From Escherichia phage LL5, in the sequence record NC_047985.1: 49,788 nucleotides of DNA. One strand, written 5' to 3'. Numbering within the stretch: the stretch's first letter is position 1; every line of letters begins with the position of its first letter. The notes beneath the pieces were generated by a model that ran no database searches, was not told the DNA's origin, and saw only the letters and a program-made list of their open reading frames with translations. Shown piece after piece: positions 2,951-47,120 of the stretch. The translations under genes were made by a program, and so were the position numbers.

Positions 2951-2953
2951 TTG

Positions 2954-3496
2954 ATGTTTACGATCAACTTGTGGGGAAGGGATTATGTTAATCCCTATGT
3001 TGCAACAAAACAGCGTTTCGTTATTTTCGACCTAGACGGCACATTGTCAAATGGTGAGCACCGCTTGCACCTGTTGCCAACGGTTGATTTGCACCTTACT
3101 GAAAGCTGGAGTGAGTTTAATCGCGCGGCTAAGGATGATTTACCGTTCAGCAATAACATTGCCGTATGCAATGCCATGTTTGATGCAGGATATCTGGTTA
3201 TCATCCTAACAGGTCGCAGTGATGAAGTTGAAGCGGAAACGCGAGAATGGTTGGCTGAAAACGGCGTTTCTTTCGATTGGCTTATTATGCGCCGCACGGA
3301 GGACAACCGGAAAGATACCGTAATCAAAGAGGAAGTTTTACGGACTATAGGACTTGATCGTATTGTGGCGTGTTGGGATGATTCACCAAACGTTATTGCA
3401 CACCTGCGCGGCCTGGGCTTGACGGTTTACCAGGTCATTGACTACGGCGACCAGTTGCACGATCACTTAAAGTCTCACGGAGTTGAGAAGTTATGA
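2954..3496 (+). CDS. HAD-superfamily phosphatase (polynucleotide 3'-phosphatase-like)
   Basis: N-terminal DxDGT motif (FVIFDLDGTL), later ILTGR and C-terminal acidic motif; resembles the phosphatase half of T4-type polynucleotide kinase. Confidence 0.65.
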   Translation: MFTINLWGRDYVNPYVATKQRFVIFDLDGTLSNGEHRLHLLPTVDLHLTESWSEFNRAAKDDLPFSNNIAVCNAMFDAGYLVIILTGRSDEVEAETREWLAENGVSFDWLIMRRTEDNRKDTVIKEEVLRTIGLDRIVACWDDSPNVIAHLRGLGLTVYQVIDYGDQLHDHLKSHGVEKL

Positions 3497-29167: not shown

Positions 29168-29195
29168 TTGACTACATGCAACAAAGACATATAAT
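29168..29195 (+). promoter_or_regulatory. strong sigma70-like promoter for exonuclease-Erf-SSB operon
   Basis: TTGACT-16 nt-TATAAT; about 28 nt upstream of SD/ATG 29224. Confidence 0.6.
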
Positions 29196-29223
29196 GCAGG
29201 CATACCAACGAGGGGATGACAAA

Positions 29224-30279
29224 ATGAGCGATTTTAAAGTTTACACCTTTGACCAGTTAACCAATGATAAATATCACGATCCTAAAGGTTGGGCGGCTGA
29301 ATACGTTAGCGGTTCAAGCCTGGCAGAAATCTTTGCAAGTTGTCCGGCAGCATGGAAATACAGACCACGCGAGGAAAGCAAAGCGCTTGTTTTCGGTACG
29401 CAGTCACATACCAACTTTCAAAGCAGTGAGTTGTTCGCAAAAGAGTACCGCCGAGCGCCAGCGCCGGAAGATTACGAAAACTTAATCACAAGCCAAACGG
29501 CATTAGCCAGCAAGTTAAAATCTTTTGGCCTGACTGGTACAAGCGGGAAAACTTATCCAGACCTGATAAAAATGATGGTTGATTGTGGTGAGGATCTTAA
29601 TGTTCAGTGGCTGATTGAAATGATCGCAGAAAGCGAGGCGCGAGCGGATAACGTTGAATTGGTTCCTGCTAAAGATTACGACGCTTGCGTTACCATGCGC
29701 CGCGTACTGGAAAGCATACCTGAACACAACGCTTGTATGAATAGCCCAACAGCACAACGCGAGCTATCAATTTTCGGCACTATAAAAGGCGTGAAAGTCA
29801 AAGTAAGGCTTGACCATGTTGATATTTGCAAGGATGTGCTTGCAACGGTGATTTCCGGCTATGACGGTGAAGGGAATCCGGTTTATGAAACAACGCGATT
29901 TGATGAAGCGATTGTGATCACTGATTACAAAACAACGTCAAGCGCTAACCCAACGGAGTTTTCACGGCTGGCATTTAATCATGGTTACTACTTGAAAATG
30001 GCATTGCAGCATGACCTATTCAAGAAAGCGTATCCAGAAGAAACGCGCCCCGTAGTAGTCAGATTGCTGGCGCAGGAAAAGAAAGAGCCTTATTTACCTA
30101 TTGCATACCGCATGACGGATGAACAATTGAAGATCGGACGGCTTCAATACATGAGTGTGATAAACCAGTTTGCAGAATGCCAGGAAAATGACGTTTGGCC
30201 TTCATACGCAAACGGAGAGCCTGAAATTGATCTTCAAACGCCTGATTGGGTTCGTCGTCAATACAAAGGTTTTTTATAA
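29224..30279 (+). CDS. PD-(D/E)xK exonuclease (recombination exonuclease, putative)
   Basis: motifs RLDHVD and ITDYKTT; sits upstream of Erf-like annealase. Confidence 0.6.
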   Translation: MSDFKVYTFDQLTNDKYHDPKGWAAEYVSGSSLAEIFASCPAAWKYRPREESKALVFGTQSHTNFQSSELFAKEYRRAPAPEDYENLITSQTALASKLKSFGLTGTSGKTYPDLIKMMVDCGEDLNVQWLIEMIAESEARADNVELVPAKDYDACVTMRRVLESIPEHNACMNSPTAQRELSIFGTIKGVKVKVRLDHVDICKDVLATVISGYDGEGNPVYETTRFDEAIVITDYKTTSSANPTEFSRLAFNHGYYLKMALQHDLFKKAYPEETRPVVVRLLAQEKKEPYLPIAYRMTDEQLKIGRLQYMSVINQFAECQENDVWPSYANGEPEIDLQTPDWVRRQYKGFL

Positions 30280-30693: not shown

Positions 30694-31356
30694 ATGAAAT
30701 TTTCCGAACAAAACGCAAACGTAATTAAGGCATTGTTTGAGGCGCGTCAATTATTCACCAAAGTAAAAAAGGATAAGCAAAACACGCACCTGAAAAATAA
30801 ATATGCAACTCTTGACAGCGTTCTTGATGCTATTATGCCTGGCCTTACTGATAAGGGTTTATTCCTTACTCAAGATCAGAAAGTTGGCGAAGATTTGAAA
30901 TCAATGACGGTTTTAACTCGCTTCATTCACGTTGAATCAAATGAATGGGTTGAATATAGTTTCACGTTGCCAATGCAGAAATTAGATCCACAAGGCGGCG
31001 GCTCAACAAACAGCTATGCGAGACGTTATGCTCTTTGCACGGCTCTTGGCCTGGCAACGGCTGACGATGACGCAAATCTTGCCACCAAAAACGCGCAGGA
31101 TTGGAAAAAAGATCTTGATGCTTGCGATAACCTTACAGACTTGCAAGAAACGTTTAAAACTGCTTACAAGCAATCTGACGCAGCAAACCGCCGAATCATT
31201 AAAGAACATTACGACAAGCTGAAAGCTAAAATGGAAATCGGAAAGGCTCGCGGTTTTAATCCGGCTGAACCAGCGGCGAATGTTGCAAAGAATGAAAAGG
31301 TTGAAAAGGAACCGCAACAGGAAGTAAAATCACAATCTATCACTGACTTTGAATAA
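30694..31356 (+). CDS. erf: Erf-family single-strand annealing protein
   Basis: KYATLDSVLDAI and GSTNSYARRYALCTALGLATADDD resemble P22 Erf. Confidence 0.75.
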   Translation: MKFSEQNANVIKALFEARQLFTKVKKDKQNTHLKNKYATLDSVLDAIMPGLTDKGLFLTQDQKVGEDLKSMTVLTRFIHVESNEWVEYSFTLPMQKLDPQGGGSTNSYARRYALCTALGLATADDDANLATKNAQDWKKDLDACDNLTDLQETFKTAYKQSDAANRRIIKEHYDKLKAKMEIGKARGFNPAEPAANVAKNEKVEKEPQQEVKSQSITDFE

Positions 31357-38910: not shown

Positions 38911-39651
38911 ATGGCTAAAGATATTCAGGACAAAACCACAATTGACACTTTCGCACAGGAAATGTATTTTCATGAACTGCAACACGGCAGATATTCAGAT
39001 ATTGCGTTGCGTTCAGGTGGTCATTATCAGCCAGTTAGAGAAAACCCAATGTTCAAGGTTAGCGGAAACCGTTATGCAGGAAGCAAAACGCCGGACGTTG
39101 TGCGCGATTTGTGGGAAACGCCAGATGAAATTGTTGAATATCTTGCTGGACGTTACGGAAAATATGATCTTGATGCAGCCGCAACGGAAGATAACAAAAA
39201 ATGCGATAAGTTTTACAGCAAAGAAACAAACTGTTTAAAGCGTTGGTGGGGTAGCAATAAGCACGTTTGGTTAAATCCACCATATAGCAATCCAGATCCA
39301 TTTATCAAAAAAGCAATTGAGCAGATGGAACACGGAAATCAGATTGATATTTTGCTTCCCGCTGATAATTCGACGGCATGGTTTAGTGACGCACAAAAAC
39401 ACGCGGCAGAAATTATCTGGATTACTGGTGAAACCTGGAAGGATGAAGAAGGTCGCGAATATTCCAGAACTGGTCGAGTAGCGTTTATTTCTGGCATGAC
39501 AGGTGAGCCAGTTAGCGGAAACAATAAAGGTAGTGTAATTTTTATCATGCGCCAATTGGAAGAAGGTGAGCAACAGCAAACGCACTATGTGAAGATTAGC
39601 GACATTTGCCCTTCCGTAAAAAATAAACGAGCCAAAGCGCGGAGTATTTAA
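38911..39651 (+). CDS. DNA N6-adenine methyltransferase (phage Dam-type)
   Basis: DLDAAAT (motif I-like) and NPPYS (motif IV). Confidence 0.85.
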   Translation: MAKDIQDKTTIDTFAQEMYFHELQHGRYSDIALRSGGHYQPVRENPMFKVSGNRYAGSKTPDVVRDLWETPDEIVEYLAGRYGKYDLDAAATEDNKKCDKFYSKETNCLKRWWGSNKHVWLNPPYSNPDPFIKKAIEQMEHGNQIDILLPADNSTAWFSDAQKHAAEIIWITGETWKDEEGREYSRTGRVAFISGMTGEPVSGNNKGSVIFIMRQLEEGEQQQTHYVKISDICPSVKNKRAKARSI

Positions 39652-40224: not shown

Positions 40225-40341
40225 ATGGCGTATGTGGATGAAAAGCCGCGACGTGTTCACCGTGTTCCAGCAATACCAACTACAATCGACTATAAAGAAG
40301 TTATTAACAAAACTAAAGAGCAAAAGAAAAGGTTTAAGTGA
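40225..40341 (+). CDS. hypothetical small protein (38 aa)
   Basis: AGGTGA SD; lies in downstream part of the frame opened after TAA at 40117. Confidence 0.3.
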   Translation: MAYVDEKPRRVHRVPAIPTTIDYKEVINKTKEQKKRFK

Positions 40342-40823
40342 TTATGTGGAGCGATATATTTTATTACAAAGATGGTGTTATTTATTGGAAGGTAAGGATG
40401 AACGGAAGAAACGGAGGTGTTAAGCCTGGGGATATTGCAGGATGTAAGAATGAATATGGATACGTTGTGATTGGTTATAATGGAAAGTTGTATTATAGAC
40501 ACTCTATAGTTTGGGAAATGCATAATGGCAAAATTCCAGATGGTTTTATTATAGATCATAAAAATCCTGTTGTTGATGGTCTTGAATCAGATGACAGAAT
40601 AGAAAATCTTAGAATAATAAAACACGCAGATAATTTAAGGAAGGGATCTAATAGGTTAAGATCCAGTAATTCAAGCGGCATAACAGGAGTTTCATATATA
40701 AAACAACATGATTGCTGGAGGGCTGCAATTTGCGTAAATGGTAAAAAGATGCAAAGGAATTTCAAGTCAATTGATGCAGCAATTAATCAGCGTGTTTATT
40801 GGGAATCTATTTATATAAAATGA
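40338..40823 (+). CDS. HNH homing endonuclease with AP2-type DNA-binding domain
   Basis: HNH core HSIVWEMHNGKIPDGFIIDHKNPVVDG...ENLRIIKHADN; AP2-like GITGVSYIKQHDCWRAAICVNGKK; ATG at 40344; AT-rich region. Confidence 0.8.
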   Translation: MIMWSDIFYYKDGVIYWKVRMNGRNGGVKPGDIAGCKNEYGYVVIGYNGKLYYRHSIVWEMHNGKIPDGFIIDHKNPVVDGLESDDRIENLRIIKHADNLRKGSNRLRSSNSSGITGVSYIKQHDCWRAAICVNGKKMQRNFKSIDAAINQRVYWESIYIK

Positions 40824-46062: not shown

Positions 46063-46257
46063 TTATTTCTCCACAATTTCAAATTTAGCAACAGTGCCGC
46101 AACAAGTATCCATTACAAGATTTTTATCTAACTGGATTTTTGCCCTTCCATATTTAACCAACACTTTACCGTTATCATCAATCCATCCTTTGTGTATGTA
46201 GTCAACCGTATAACTTTTTGCGCGGCTGGCTACGCATTTCAACTTTATAGGCTTCAT
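46063..46257 (-). CDS. hypothetical protein (64 aa)
   Basis: AGGAGG SD before ATG 46257. Confidence 0.45.
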   Translation of the reverse strand: MKPIKLKCVASRAKSYTVDYIHKGWIDDNGKVLVKYGRAKIQLDKNLVMDTCCGTVAKFEIVEK

Positions 46258-46301
46258 TGTTTCCTCCTGTTGTCTGTAATGTAACAAACCCGCCGTAGCG
46301 G

Positions 46302-46323
46302 GTTTTAACATTTTGTGCTATTT
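46302..46323 (-). promoter_or_regulatory. conserved box copy 12 (- strand AAATAGCACAAAATGTTAAAAC)
   Basis: TAG is stop of the C5-MTase-like gene; followed by CCCGCTACGGCGGG hairpin plus TTTG; 63 nt upstream of ATG 46257. Confidence 0.7.
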
Positions 46324-47013
46324 CTGATTTGCAAGGCAGATCGCCAGGGCGAAGCCGCGAGGGGTGAGAGAGCGGATCAGTTTTGTGCGCTTAGACTTGC
46401 CTCCCAACTTCTGCCAGCCTGGATTGTTGTTCCCTGTTGGCAATACTGCGTTTGTATCCGGCATCACAAAACCGTTACCCGTCCAAAGGCAAGTTTTTTT
46501 GGTGTACGCATCGCGAGCAGGAATGATTTCAGGAAAGTGAGGATGCTTATCATCTTCCGGCAACAGACCGCCAAACGCGCAAGGATGAAAGATAAAATCA
46601 GGTTGCCGCCACATCGACGACAGGACGCTAACAGGATTCTCGATCATGTATGGCGCATTGAACCAATCCGCAATTTCAGCCGCAATCTTGCATGTTGAAA
46701 CGGCCTTATCCTGGAATAGCGGATCACGTTCACGCTTTGCGGCAAAGTGACGCGAACCGCTAACAGCTAAATCAGTGCAGGGAGGAAATGCAATTACAAA
46801 ATCAGGCTTTCCGTAAACCTCATTGCGAGCCTTAAAGCTGAAATCTGAATCAATCCAAACGTTTACATACTCAATGTTGGGATGACTTACCCGCACTGAA
46901 TGGTAATCACCATGATCGGCATCATCATAATTGAAACAGATTACTTTGTTACCACGTTCAGCCCACGGCAAAGCGGCATAACCTGAACCATCAAAAAGAG
47001 AGAAAATCAACAT
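46318..47013 (-). CDS. DNA (cytosine-5)-methyltransferase-like protein, unusually compact (231 aa)
   Basis: motif I-like FSLFDGSGYAALPW, motif IV-like FPPCTDLAVSG, ENV-like MIENPV; no room for a normal target-recognition domain. Confidence 0.6.
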   Translation of the reverse strand: MLIFSLFDGSGYAALPWAERGNKVICFNYDDADHGDYHSVRVSHPNIEYVNVWIDSDFSFKARNEVYGKPDFVIAFPPCTDLAVSGSRHFAAKRERDPLFQDKAVSTCKIAAEIADWFNAPYMIENPVSVLSSMWRQPDFIFHPCAFGGLLPEDDKHPHFPEIIPARDAYTKKTCLWTGNGFVMPDTNAVLPTGNNNPGWQKLGGKSKRTKLIRSLTPRGFALAICLANQK

Positions 47014-47120
47014 GTTTAAATCCTTTGTGTATGACCTTGTAAGGAGTTTTGTTTAGTGGTGTCGCAATTGTATTAGTTGCAGCCTGAAATCGCCACGCGA
47101 TGCGAAACAGGCCGCAAATT

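What the first reader, a model, noticed from the sequence alone, without database searches (positions are those of the whole stretch)
46318..47013. Unusually short cytosine-5 methyltransferase-like protein alongside a Dam-type adenine methyltransferase
The 231-aa product has C5-MTase-like motifs in the right order (FSLFDGSGYAALPW for motif I, FPPCTDLAVSG for the catalytic PC motif, MIENPV for ENV), but it is 100-200 residues shorter than ordinary C5 methyltransferases and has no obvious target-recognition domain; the usual PCQ is PCT. It could be a minimal anti-restriction methylase, could need a partner for targeting, or could catalyse a different cytosine-directed reaction. The genome also encodes a canonical phage Dam-type N6-adenine methyltransferase (38911-39651), so it may carry both modifications.
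Basis: partly seen in the sequence, partly recalled or inferred. Interest (0 to 1): 0.55.

Follow-up and report, generated by a model that had tools for sequence, protein, structure and literature searches.

The report
Known short phage cytosine methyltransferase (Dcm-like)
This gene encodes a real but already known, unusually compact phage DNA cytosine-5 methyltransferase whose close relative has been shown to methylate DNA and to set off the bacterial retron Ec86/Eco1 defence, so the finding is correct but ordinary.

The parts
46318..47013 (-). CDS of the short Dcm-like C5-cytosine DNA methyltransferase (231 aa plus stop)
47021..47025 (-). AAGGA ribosome-binding site, 7 nt upstream of the ATG
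   Evidence: read directly from the sequence
46963..47004 (-). Motif I (aa 4-17, FSLFDGSGYAALPW), the AdoMet-binding loop after beta-1
   Evidence: aligned to Pfam PF00145 profile positions 3-93 and to M.HaeIII/DNMT3B motif I; coordinates
46756..46788 (-). Motif IV (aa 76-86, FPPCTDLAVSG); the catalytic nucleophile Cys79 is encoded at 46777-46779
   Evidence: C79 is invariant in 41 diverse members; it equals C82 of the K42/KarlJaspers Dcm mutated in the inactive Dcm-mut
46630..46647 (-). Motif VI (aa 123-128, MIENPV); Glu125 is encoded at 46639-46641
   Evidence: E125 and P127 invariant, N126 at least 90% conserved; equals E128 of K42 Dcm
46495..46500 (-). Lys172-Lys173 just before beta-7, the inferred stand-in for the canonical motif VIII QxRxR
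   Evidence: K172 and T174 at least 90% conserved; equal K175/K176 of K42 Dcm, mutated in Dcm-mut; the equivalence to motif VIII is inferred from position in the secondary structure
46321..46476 (-). C-terminal 52 residues (aa 180-231): a variable loop plus three short helices ending in the conserved IRSLTPRGFAxAV segment; this takes the place of the TRD and motifs IX/X of canonical enzymes
   Evidence: secondary structure of the model; this is the most variable part of the family alignment apart from R214, S215, P218, G220 and A224; not recognised by the Pfam profile
38911..39651 (+). Phage Dam-type N6-adenine DNA methyltransferase (246 aa), the second methylase of the genome
   Evidence: Pfam PF05869 E 2.2e-62, TIGR01712 E 8.4e-57, phrog_111 E 1.7e-89

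Best explanation
The gene encodes a stand-alone, S-adenosylmethionine-dependent DNA cytosine-5 methyltransferase of the compact phage 'Dcm-like' family (phrog_757). It consists essentially of the catalytic Rossmann-type domain alone. Cys79 (motif IV, PCT) is inferred to attack C6 of a flipped-out cytosine. Glu125 (motif VI, ENP) is inferred to protonate N3. Lys172/Lys173 before beta-7 are inferred to replace the usual motif VIII arginines. A roughly 50-residue C-terminal segment, and possibly the long beta6-beta7 loop, replace the large target-recognition domain. During infection the enzyme most likely methylates replicating phage DNA at CCWGG (inferred). Together with the phage Dam acting at GATC, this would shield progeny DNA from EcoRII-type and other methylation-sensitive restriction faster than host enzymes could. 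As a side effect, this activity is what retron Ec86/Eco1 senses: methylation of the CCTGG site in the msDNA stem-loop activates the effector. This phage is therefore predicted to be sensitive to that retron. Shown here: family membership, fold, conserved catalytic residues and orthology with the characterised enzyme. Shown in the literature for the ortholog: 5mC formation and retron triggering. Inferred: CCWGG specificity, the anti-restriction role and the residue roles. The confidence of 0.85 is for 'active stand-alone DNA C5-methyltransferase orthologous to the K42/KarlJaspers Dcm'; for CCWGG as the exact site I would give about 0.6.
Against: The window protein itself is below the Pfam gathering threshold (15.6 against 22 bits), and only its N-terminal 100 residues align to the profile. 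NCBIfam has no match. No canonical motif VIII, IX or X could be identified by sequence. CCWGG specificity was never mapped directly: the preprint assumed it by analogy with host Dcm. The assay host MG1655 is itself dcm+ (dcm is annotated there), yet 5mC on msDNA was low without the phage enzyme. So either host Dcm does not reach msDNA, or the phage enzyme's target differs. Lack of CCWGG avoidance is only weak evidence, because several other 5-bp palindromes are also not avoided. T1, which lacks the gene, shows only mild CCWGG depletion (O/E 0.82, n=1). BASEL found no simple link between methyltransferase genes and restriction resistance in Drexlerviridae.
Confidence: 0.85

Rival explanations
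1. It is an active C5-cytosine DNA methyltransferase, but its target is not host-Dcm-like CCWGG inner-cytosine methylation. The minimal recognition module might read a shorter or degenerate site, or methylate the outer cytosine.
For: Specificity was assumed, not mapped. MG1655 is dcm+, yet it neither auto-activates Ec86 nor gives high msDNA 5mC without the phage enzyme. There is no detectable relationship to E. coli Dcm beyond the PC motif (hhalign probability about 1%). The closest structural relatives are the DNMT3 enzymes, which read only 2 bp. Both ACTGG and CATGG variants of the msDNA site abolished defence.
Against: AAS23 virion DNA behaves as Dcm-methylated in restriction digests. CCWGG is unavoided while the sibling sites CCSGG and GGWCC are essentially eliminated, which argues against a degenerate CCNGG or CC/GG-type target that would protect those too. 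The CCTGG site in msDNA is required.
Confidence: 0.22
2. It transfers a group other than methyl to cytosine C5, for example carboxymethyl from Cx-SAM as CmoX does, providing a handle for hypermodification.
Confidence: 0.03
3. It is only the catalytic half of a methylase and needs a separately encoded targeting partner, or it is an inactive remnant.
For: There is no separate TRD domain. The gene is flanked by small ORFs of unknown function, one of which (46063-46311) has no PHROG match.
Against: The ortholog expressed alone from a plasmid is active in vivo. The flanking genes differ between Tempevirinae, Braunvirinae, Sauletekiovirus and Dhillonvirus. The catalytic residues and a full-length architecture of about 230 aa are conserved across 2,049 clusters, which is not expected for a remnant.
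Confidence: 0.03
4. Its physiological substrate is RNA (DNMT2-like tRNA methylation) or single-stranded DNA rather than duplex phage DNA.
Against: The DNMT2 scores are lower than those of the DNA enzymes. The methylated msDNA element is a duplex hairpin carrying a palindromic-type site. AAS23 genomic DNA is reported as Dcm-methylated.
Confidence: 0.02

Closest known systems
Phage K42 / KarlJaspers (Bas06) 'Dcm-like C5 cytosine methyltransferase' (bas06_0055, QXV82308.1), the trigger of retron Ec86/Eco1; PHROG family phrog_757
   Same: 68% identity over the full length; same length class (231 vs 236 aa); same PCT, ENP and KKT residues; the same 'NPGW...GGKS.RTK.IRSLTPRGFA' C-terminal variant; same genomic position downstream of the phrog_2373 helicase block; co-occurrence with a phage Dam.
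   Different: 32% of residues differ. Two residues fewer in the loop around aa 193-196, and a 3-residue shorter N-terminus. An extra 82-aa ORF (46063-46311) lies between the MTase and the next gene. Activity and retron triggering have not been tested for this protein.
Pantoea phage AAS23 gp52 DNA cytosine methyltransferase
   Same: 58.5% identity over 234 aa, syntenic, and paired with a Dam. Described in the same way: no conserved domain by BLASTP, with HHpred hits to C5-MTases.
   Different: Different host genus. The evidence there is restriction digestion of virion DNA only.
DNMT3A/DNMT3B catalytic domains (eukaryotic de novo C5-MTases)
   Different: Sequence similarity is not significant (E about 0.09). 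DNMT3 domains are about 280 aa and work as dimers or tetramers with DNMT3L on CpG. The oligomeric state of the phage enzyme is unknown.
Canonical bacterial type II C5-MTases (M.HhaI, M.HaeIII; Pfam PF00145)
   Same: Same fold and the same order of motifs I, IV and VI, with the catalytic Cys and Glu.
   Different: About 100 residues shorter. No separate TRD lobe. Motif VIII QxRxR and motifs IX/X are not recognisable. PCT instead of PCQ, and ENP instead of ENV. Only the N-terminal third aligns to the Pfam profile.
E. coli K-12 Dcm (EcoRII-type CCWGG methylase, 472 aa)
   Same: Presumed same product (5mC) and presumed same site (CCWGG), hence the shared name.
   Different: Not an ortholog: hhalign finds only the PC motif (27 columns, probability about 1%). 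Host Dcm has a DNA_meth_N domain and a full PF00145 domain (E 3.9e-77).
CmoX, phage DNA cytosine C5-carboxymethyltransferase (PDB 8yf3)
   Different: CmoX is 333 aa, uses Cx-SAM through an Arg that replaces the motif X Asn, targets GC, and is encoded next to CmoA and CmoY. None of these features was found here.

Membership tests
C5-cytosine methyltransferase superfamily (Pfam PF00145 fold and motifs) | Class I AdoMet-MTase fold specifically resembling C5-MTase catalytic domains | tested here: met
C5-cytosine methyltransferase superfamily (Pfam PF00145 fold and motifs) | Motif I (FxGxG) AdoMet-binding loop after beta-1 | tested here: met
   F7-D8-G9-S10-G11 aligns to motif I of PF00145, M.HaeIII and DNMT3B. 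In distant members only the last Gly is kept.
C5-cytosine methyltransferase superfamily (Pfam PF00145 fold and motifs) | Motif IV Pro-Cys catalytic nucleophile | tested here: met
   P78-C79; C79 is invariant in 41 diverse members. The following residue is Thr, not Gln.
C5-cytosine methyltransferase superfamily (Pfam PF00145 fold and motifs) | Motif VI Glu-Asn-Val | tested here: met
   E125-N126-P127(-V128) at the end of beta-5; E125 and P127 are invariant. This is a variant form, ENP.
C5-cytosine methyltransferase superfamily (Pfam PF00145 fold and motifs) | Motif VIII QxRxR | tested here: not met
   No QxRxR is present. The segment before beta-7 reads Y170-T-K172-K173-T174. Functional equivalence is inferred only.
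C5-cytosine methyltransferase superfamily (Pfam PF00145 fold and motifs) | Separate target-recognition domain followed by motifs IX and X | tested here: not met
   Only 52 residues follow beta-7, and no Pfam or hhalign alignment extends beyond about aa 100. Whether the last helix plays the role of motif X could not be tested, because no residue-level structural alignment was available.
C5-cytosine methyltransferase superfamily (Pfam PF00145 fold and motifs) | Score above the Pfam gathering threshold (22 bits) | tested here: not met
   The window protein scores 15.6 bits, E 0.011. However, 22 of 35 close family members hit the model, and the best reach 24.7-28.5 bits.
C5-cytosine methyltransferase superfamily (Pfam PF00145 fold and motifs) | AdoMet-dependent formation of 5-methylcytosine in DNA | not testable with these tools
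   Shown by LC-MS for the K42 enzyme, whose Bas06 counterpart is 68% identical to the window protein.
Compact phage Dcm-like methyltransferase (phrog_757; K42/KarlJaspers Dcm) | Full-length homology to characterised member(s) | tested here: met
   phrog_757 E 7.4e-87 over aa 1-230. 68% identity, E 9e-120, to KarlJaspers Dcm. 58.5% identity to AAS23 gp52.
Compact phage Dcm-like methyltransferase (phrog_757; K42/KarlJaspers Dcm) | Conservation of the residues whose combined mutation inactivates the enzyme (C82, E128, K175, K176) | tested here: met
   Window C79, E125, K172 and K173 lie in identical heptapeptide contexts.
Compact phage Dcm-like methyltransferase (phrog_757; K42/KarlJaspers Dcm) | Single-domain architecture of about 210-260 aa | tested here: met
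   231 aa. The 149 cluster representatives have a median of 234 aa, IQR 214-249.
Compact phage Dcm-like methyltransferase (phrog_757; K42/KarlJaspers Dcm) | CCWGG target specificity | tested here: inconclusive
   CCWGG is not avoided (O/E 1.04), whereas CCSGG and GGWCC are purged. But T1, which lacks the gene, shows only O/E 0.82, and specificity was not mapped in the literature read.
Compact phage Dcm-like methyltransferase (phrog_757; K42/KarlJaspers Dcm) | Triggers retron Ec86/Eco1 | not testable with these tools
   Shown for K42 Dcm; predicted here by orthology.
E. coli Dcm / EcoRII-methylase orthologs | Detectable full-length homology, including the DNA_meth_N domain and the TRD | tested here: not met
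   hhalign of family profile A1 against K-12 Dcm aligns 27 columns around the PC motif, probability about 1%. Host Dcm has PF18284 plus a full PF00145 domain.
CmoX-type DNA cytosine carboxymethyltransferases | Genomic association with CmoA (Cx-SAM synthase) and CmoY ligase | tested here: not met
   No such domains in the ten non-structural ORFs scanned, and none annotated in KarlJaspers or AAS23.
CmoX-type DNA cytosine carboxymethyltransferases | Arg replacing the motif X Asn (M.HhaI N304) to bind the carboxymethyl group | not tested
   The motif X equivalent could not be assigned without a residue-level structural superposition. R219 at the start of the last helix is not conserved in the family.

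The most novel reading that the evidence does not exclude
This roughly 230-aa family may be the smallest naturally active DNA C5-methyltransferase architecture. It may recognise its site in a way not yet described: through the extended beta6-beta7 loop plus a roughly 40-residue C-terminal module, possibly as a DNMT3-like dimer across the pseudo-palindromic site. Its true specificity may differ from host Dcm, which would explain why dcm+ E. coli K-12 does not self-activate retron Ec86.
Probability: 0.25. Interest if true: 0.45.

Novelty: already known. Interest (0 to 1): 0.2.

Why it matters
For genome annotation, the gene can be named confidently as a Dcm-like DNA cytosine-5 methyltransferase, even though Pfam and NCBIfam miss it and several near-identical GenBank copies are labelled 'hypothetical protein'. 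Biologically, it predicts two things. First, this phage methylates both adenine (Dam) and cytosine, which affects its sensitivity to restriction systems. Second, it carries the known trigger of retron Ec86/Eco1, which is relevant when choosing hosts or designing therapeutic phage cocktails. The remaining scientific value lies in enzymology: how a catalytic domain without a TRD achieves sequence specificity, and what that specificity actually is.

Tried and rejected
1. Sequence-only assignment failed or was marginal. Pfam PF00145 was below threshold, NCBIfam gave nothing, and phmmer or a family profile against PDB sequences gave only E 0.09-0.65 over motifs I-IV.

2. A profile comparison of the family with E. 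coli K-12 Dcm, intended to locate motifs VIII-X, aligned only the PC motif. The C-terminal motif equivalences therefore remain inferred from secondary structure.

3. I tried to read the published Cell Reports paper (10.1016/j.celrep.2024.114857), but it is not held. I relied on the preprint and on how later papers cite the published version.

4. The comparative test of CCWGG specificity used one gene-lacking phage (T1) against three carriers. It gave a small difference in the predicted direction (O/E 0.82 against 1.02-1.04) but is underpowered, and T1 does not avoid restriction sites strongly in general. I treat it as inconclusive.

5. An earlier 2nd-order Markov estimate suggested CCWGG over-representation (z = 5). 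With the stricter maximal-order model the site is simply not avoided (O/E 1.04), so I dropped the over-representation claim.

6. The promoter and terminator scan around the gene found nothing beyond chance.

8. The partner-protein idea was rejected because the flanking genes are not conserved and the ortholog is active when expressed alone.

Full report
OBSERVATION

The ORF reported at 46318-47013 is real, but it lies on the minus strand. It starts with ATG at 47013, is preceded by an AAGGA Shine-Dalgarno 7 nt upstream, and encodes 231 aa. The three quoted motifs are present in the stated order:
- FSLFDGSGYAALPW at aa 4-17
- FPPCTDLAVSG at aa 76-86
- MIENPV at aa 123-128

The companion gene at 38911-39651 (+) is a textbook phage Dam: Pfam PF05869 E 2.2e-62, TIGR01712 E 8.4e-57.

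The window is a T1-like siphovirus genome close to Citrobacter phage Stevie and Salmonella Tlsvirus-like phages, with 86-90% DNA identity around the gene.

IS IT MORE THAN CHANCE, AND WHAT FAMILY IS IT?

Curated general models barely see this protein:
- Pfam DNA_methylase PF00145 gives 15.6 bits (E 0.011), below the 22-bit threshold, and aligns only aa 3-102 to profile positions 3-93 of 324.
- NCBIfam gives nothing.
- The PDB sequence search gives only M.HaeIII at E 0.65.

The phage-specific library is unambiguous: phrog_757 'DNA methyltransferase', E 7.4e-87 over the whole protein.

The family is very large:
- tblastn finds it in 1,525 phage records, 1,465 of them full length. These include Drexlerviridae, Dhillonvirus, rV5-like myoviruses, Klebsiella Webervirus, and Vibrio and Arthrobacter phages. 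The annotations vary: 'Dcm', 'DNA cytosine methyltransferase', 'DNA methyltransferase' or 'hypothetical protein'.
- There are 5,353 homologs in the 5.8-billion-protein set.
- A profile search of 1.84 billion cluster representatives finds 2,049 clusters at E<=1e-3 and 208 at E<=1e-30.
- The 149 best representatives have a median length of 234 aa, IQR 214-249.

The short length is therefore the normal architecture of a successful family. It is not a truncation.

STRUCTURE AND ANATOMY

An AlphaFold2 model built on 35 homologs is confident (pLDDT 90.9, pTM 0.88).

- DNMT1, M.MpeI and DNMT2 at about 11

The secondary structure follows the class I MTase order:
- beta1 (aa 2-6), followed by motif I
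- beta2 (aa 23-28)
- beta3 (aa 47-51)
- beta4 (aa 72-75), followed by the PC loop
- a long helix (aa 100-117)
- beta5 (aa 122-126), ending in ENP
- beta6 (aa 140-142)
- an unusually long 31-residue beta6-beta7 connection
- beta7 (aa 174-179)
- only 52 further residues: a loop and three short helices

Canonical enzymes have about 150 residues after beta7 (TRD, motif IX, motif X).

In an alignment of 41 members that are only 32-68% identical:
- Invariant positions: C79, E125, P127, P144, Y170, W177, P185.
- Positions at least 90% conserved: F76, T80, L82, G86, K93, N126, R136, F142, D168, K172, T174, R214, S215, P218, G220, A224.

The catalytic Cys and the motif VI Glu are therefore absolutely conserved. 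'PCT' and 'ENP' are family signatures. A YxKKT segment sits where QxRxR normally precedes beta7; that equivalence is inferred from position and was not tested. The segment at aa 180-210 is the most variable part, as expected for a specificity determinant.

At the family level the sequence link to PF00145 holds: 22 of 35 close homologs hit it, and the best reach 24.7-28.5 bits, above threshold. The hits are always through motifs I-IV only.

THE DECISIVE LINK: AN EXPERIMENTALLY CHARACTERISED ORTHOLOG

A literature search for Drexlerviridae cytosine methyltransferases led to the preprint 'Defense mechanism of a bacterial retron supramolecular assembly' (bioRxiv 10.1101/2023.08.16.553469). [quoted passage not shown]

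The preprint reports the following for phage K42, a strain 95.4% identical to BASEL phage KarlJaspers:
- K42 escapes retron Ec86 only by disrupting a 711-bp dcm gene.
- Expressing Dcm alone is toxic only in the presence of Ec86.
- LC-MS shows high 5-methylcytosine on msDNA with wild-type Dcm, but not with the C82A/E128A/K175A/K176A mutant.
- Changing the CCTGG site of the msDNA stem-loop abolishes defence.
- 34 of 35 Ec86-sensitive phages encode such a Dcm.

I fetched KarlJaspers (MZ501090). Gene bas06_0055 is exactly 711 bp, is annotated 'Dcm-like C5 cytosine methyltransferase', and lies downstream of the same helicase block as in the window.

Its 236-aa product is 68% identical to the window protein over the full length (E 9e-120). 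Residues 82, 128, 175 and 176 are C, E, K and K, as in the paper. They map to window C79, E125, K172 and K173 within identical local sequence. The two proteins also share the same variant of the variable C-terminal loop (…NPGW.K.GGKS.RTK.IRSLTPRGFA…), so they probably share specificity.

A second relative is gp52 of Pantoea phage AAS23. It is 58.5% identical and syntenic. It was described in the same terms: no conserved domain by BLASTP, with HHpred hits to C5-MTases. The AAS23 virion DNA was reported as Dam- and Dcm-methylated by restriction analysis.

MECHANISM

The most likely mechanism is as follows. The enzyme is a stand-alone AdoMet-dependent DNA C5-cytosine methyltransferase. It uses Cys79 as nucleophile and Glu125 as the general acid on N3, with Lys172/173 in place of the motif VIII arginines. 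DNA recognition is provided by the long beta6-beta7 loop and the short C-terminal module.

Its biological role, together with Dam, is rapid self-methylation of replicating phage DNA against methylation-sensitive restriction. That same activity is the signal sensed by retron Ec86/Eco1.

The status of each step:
- Shown here: family, fold, residue conservation, orthology.
- Shown in the literature for the ortholog: 5mC formation, autonomy, retron triggering.
- Inferred: CCWGG specificity, the anti-restriction benefit, the residue roles.

HOW SOLID IS CCWGG?

It is less solid than the name suggests.
- The preprint assumed the site by analogy with host Dcm.
- The phage enzyme is not an ortholog of host Dcm. 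hhalign finds only the PC motif, with probability about 1%, whereas host Dcm has a full PF00145 domain plus DNA_meth_N.
- The assays were done in MG1655, which carries dcm, yet msDNA 5mC was low without the phage enzyme.

Indirect support from composition:
- With a maximal-order Markov expectation, the window eliminates many restriction-type palindromes: CCSGG 0 observed against 13.9 expected, GGWCC 1/15.9, TCCGGA 0/23, GGATCC 0/15.8, AAGCTT 0/13.2, and GGCC O/E 0.47.
- It does not avoid CCWGG (103/99.1, O/E 1.04) or GATC (284/257.8, O/E 1.10).
- KarlJaspers shows the same pattern.

This is what one expects if CCWGG and GATC are covered by the phage's own methylases. It also argues against a degenerate CCNGG-type target. 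However, other 5-bp palindromes are also unavoided. T1, which lacks the gene (no tblastn hit), shows only mild CCWGG depletion (O/E 0.82). T1 does not avoid sites strongly in general. I therefore rate this test as inconclusive.

RIVALS

Four alternatives were considered:
- An obligatory partner. This is unlikely because the ortholog works alone and the neighbouring genes differ between lineages.
- An RNA substrate. This has no specific support.
- A different DNA target. A C5 DNA methylase with a target other than the inner C of CCWGG remains a live alternative, at about 0.2.

COMPARISON WITH KNOWN FAMILIES

- By function and orthology, the protein is a member of the compact phage Dcm-like family (phrog_757; K42/KarlJaspers Dcm).
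- By fold, it belongs to the C5-MTase superfamily. It fails several classical sequence criteria: the Pfam threshold, QxRxR, and a recognisable TRD and motifs IX/X.
- Structurally it is closest to the DNMT3 catalytic domain, the other C5-MTase class with a minimal recognition module.
- It is not an ortholog of E. coli Dcm, despite the shared name.

VERDICT

The thing itself is already known: it is abundantly present and frequently annotated in phage genomes, and its function has been demonstrated in a close ortholog. The residual interest is enzymological: the exact site, the recognition mode and the oligomeric state of a roughly 230-aa C5-MTase. Interest 0.2.

Noticed in passing
whole window (1-49788); also L005 (KarlJaspers): Very strong avoidance of restriction-type palindromes under a maximal-order Markov expectation: TCCGGA 0/23, GGATCC 0/15.8, AGGCCT 0/13.8, AAGCTT 0/13.2, CCSGG 0/13.9, GGWCC 1/15.9, GGCGCC 1/14.7, and GGCC O/E 0.47. 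GATC and CCWGG are not avoided. T1 and AAS23 avoid CCSGG and GGWCC much less.
   Followed up: partly
window 46063-46311 (-): An 82-aa ORF immediately downstream of the methylase (4-nt gap) has no PHROG match and is absent from the corresponding position in KarlJaspers. Function unknown. The other neighbours are PHROG families of unknown function.
   Followed up: partly
window 46315-46698 (+): A 127-aa GTG-initiated ORF lies antisense, entirely inside the methylase gene. It is most likely a shadow ORF.
   Followed up: no
GenBank OR786094.1 (hit H4): A record named 'Streptococcus phage MBBL140', with host Streptococcus agalactiae, is about 89% identical at the DNA level to this enterobacterial T1-like genome. 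This is probably a mislabelled or contaminant record.
   Followed up: no
Campylobacter phage records (e.g. MG065638.1, hit H85): About 39 Campylobacter phage records match only the first ~41 residues of the protein, at 68% identity. This may be a fragment or a domain-swapped relative. Unexplained.
   Followed up: no
family profile A1 vs DNMT3B: The best (non-significant, E 0.09) PDB sequence match of the family profile is DNMT3B rather than a bacterial enzyme. The local resemblances are 'HE.NI.YVN' and 'PC(T/N)DL(A/S)', matching the structural ranking. This may be a hint about the relatives of the DNMT3 catalytic domain.
   Followed up: no
window 38911-39651 (+): The Dam protein has about 56 N-terminal residues ahead of the Pfam Dam domain (the domain spans aa 57-242). 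phrog_111 covers them, so the extension is conserved among phage Dams.
   Followed up: no
window 40338-40823 (+), 2951-3496 (+), 30694-31356 (+), 29176-30279 (+): Other accessory genes seen while checking for CmoA: an HNH_3 endonuclease, a PNKP-type HAD phosphatase, an ERF single-strand annealing protein and a PDDEXK (DUF3799, RecE-like) nuclease. These are typical T1-like content.
   Followed up: no
GenBank annotations of homologs: Annotation of this family is inconsistent. Near-identical copies are labelled 'hypothetical protein' (e.g. OQ359885, 97.4% identical). In PV654122 the region under the match is annotated 'portal protein | holin protein'.
   Followed up: no
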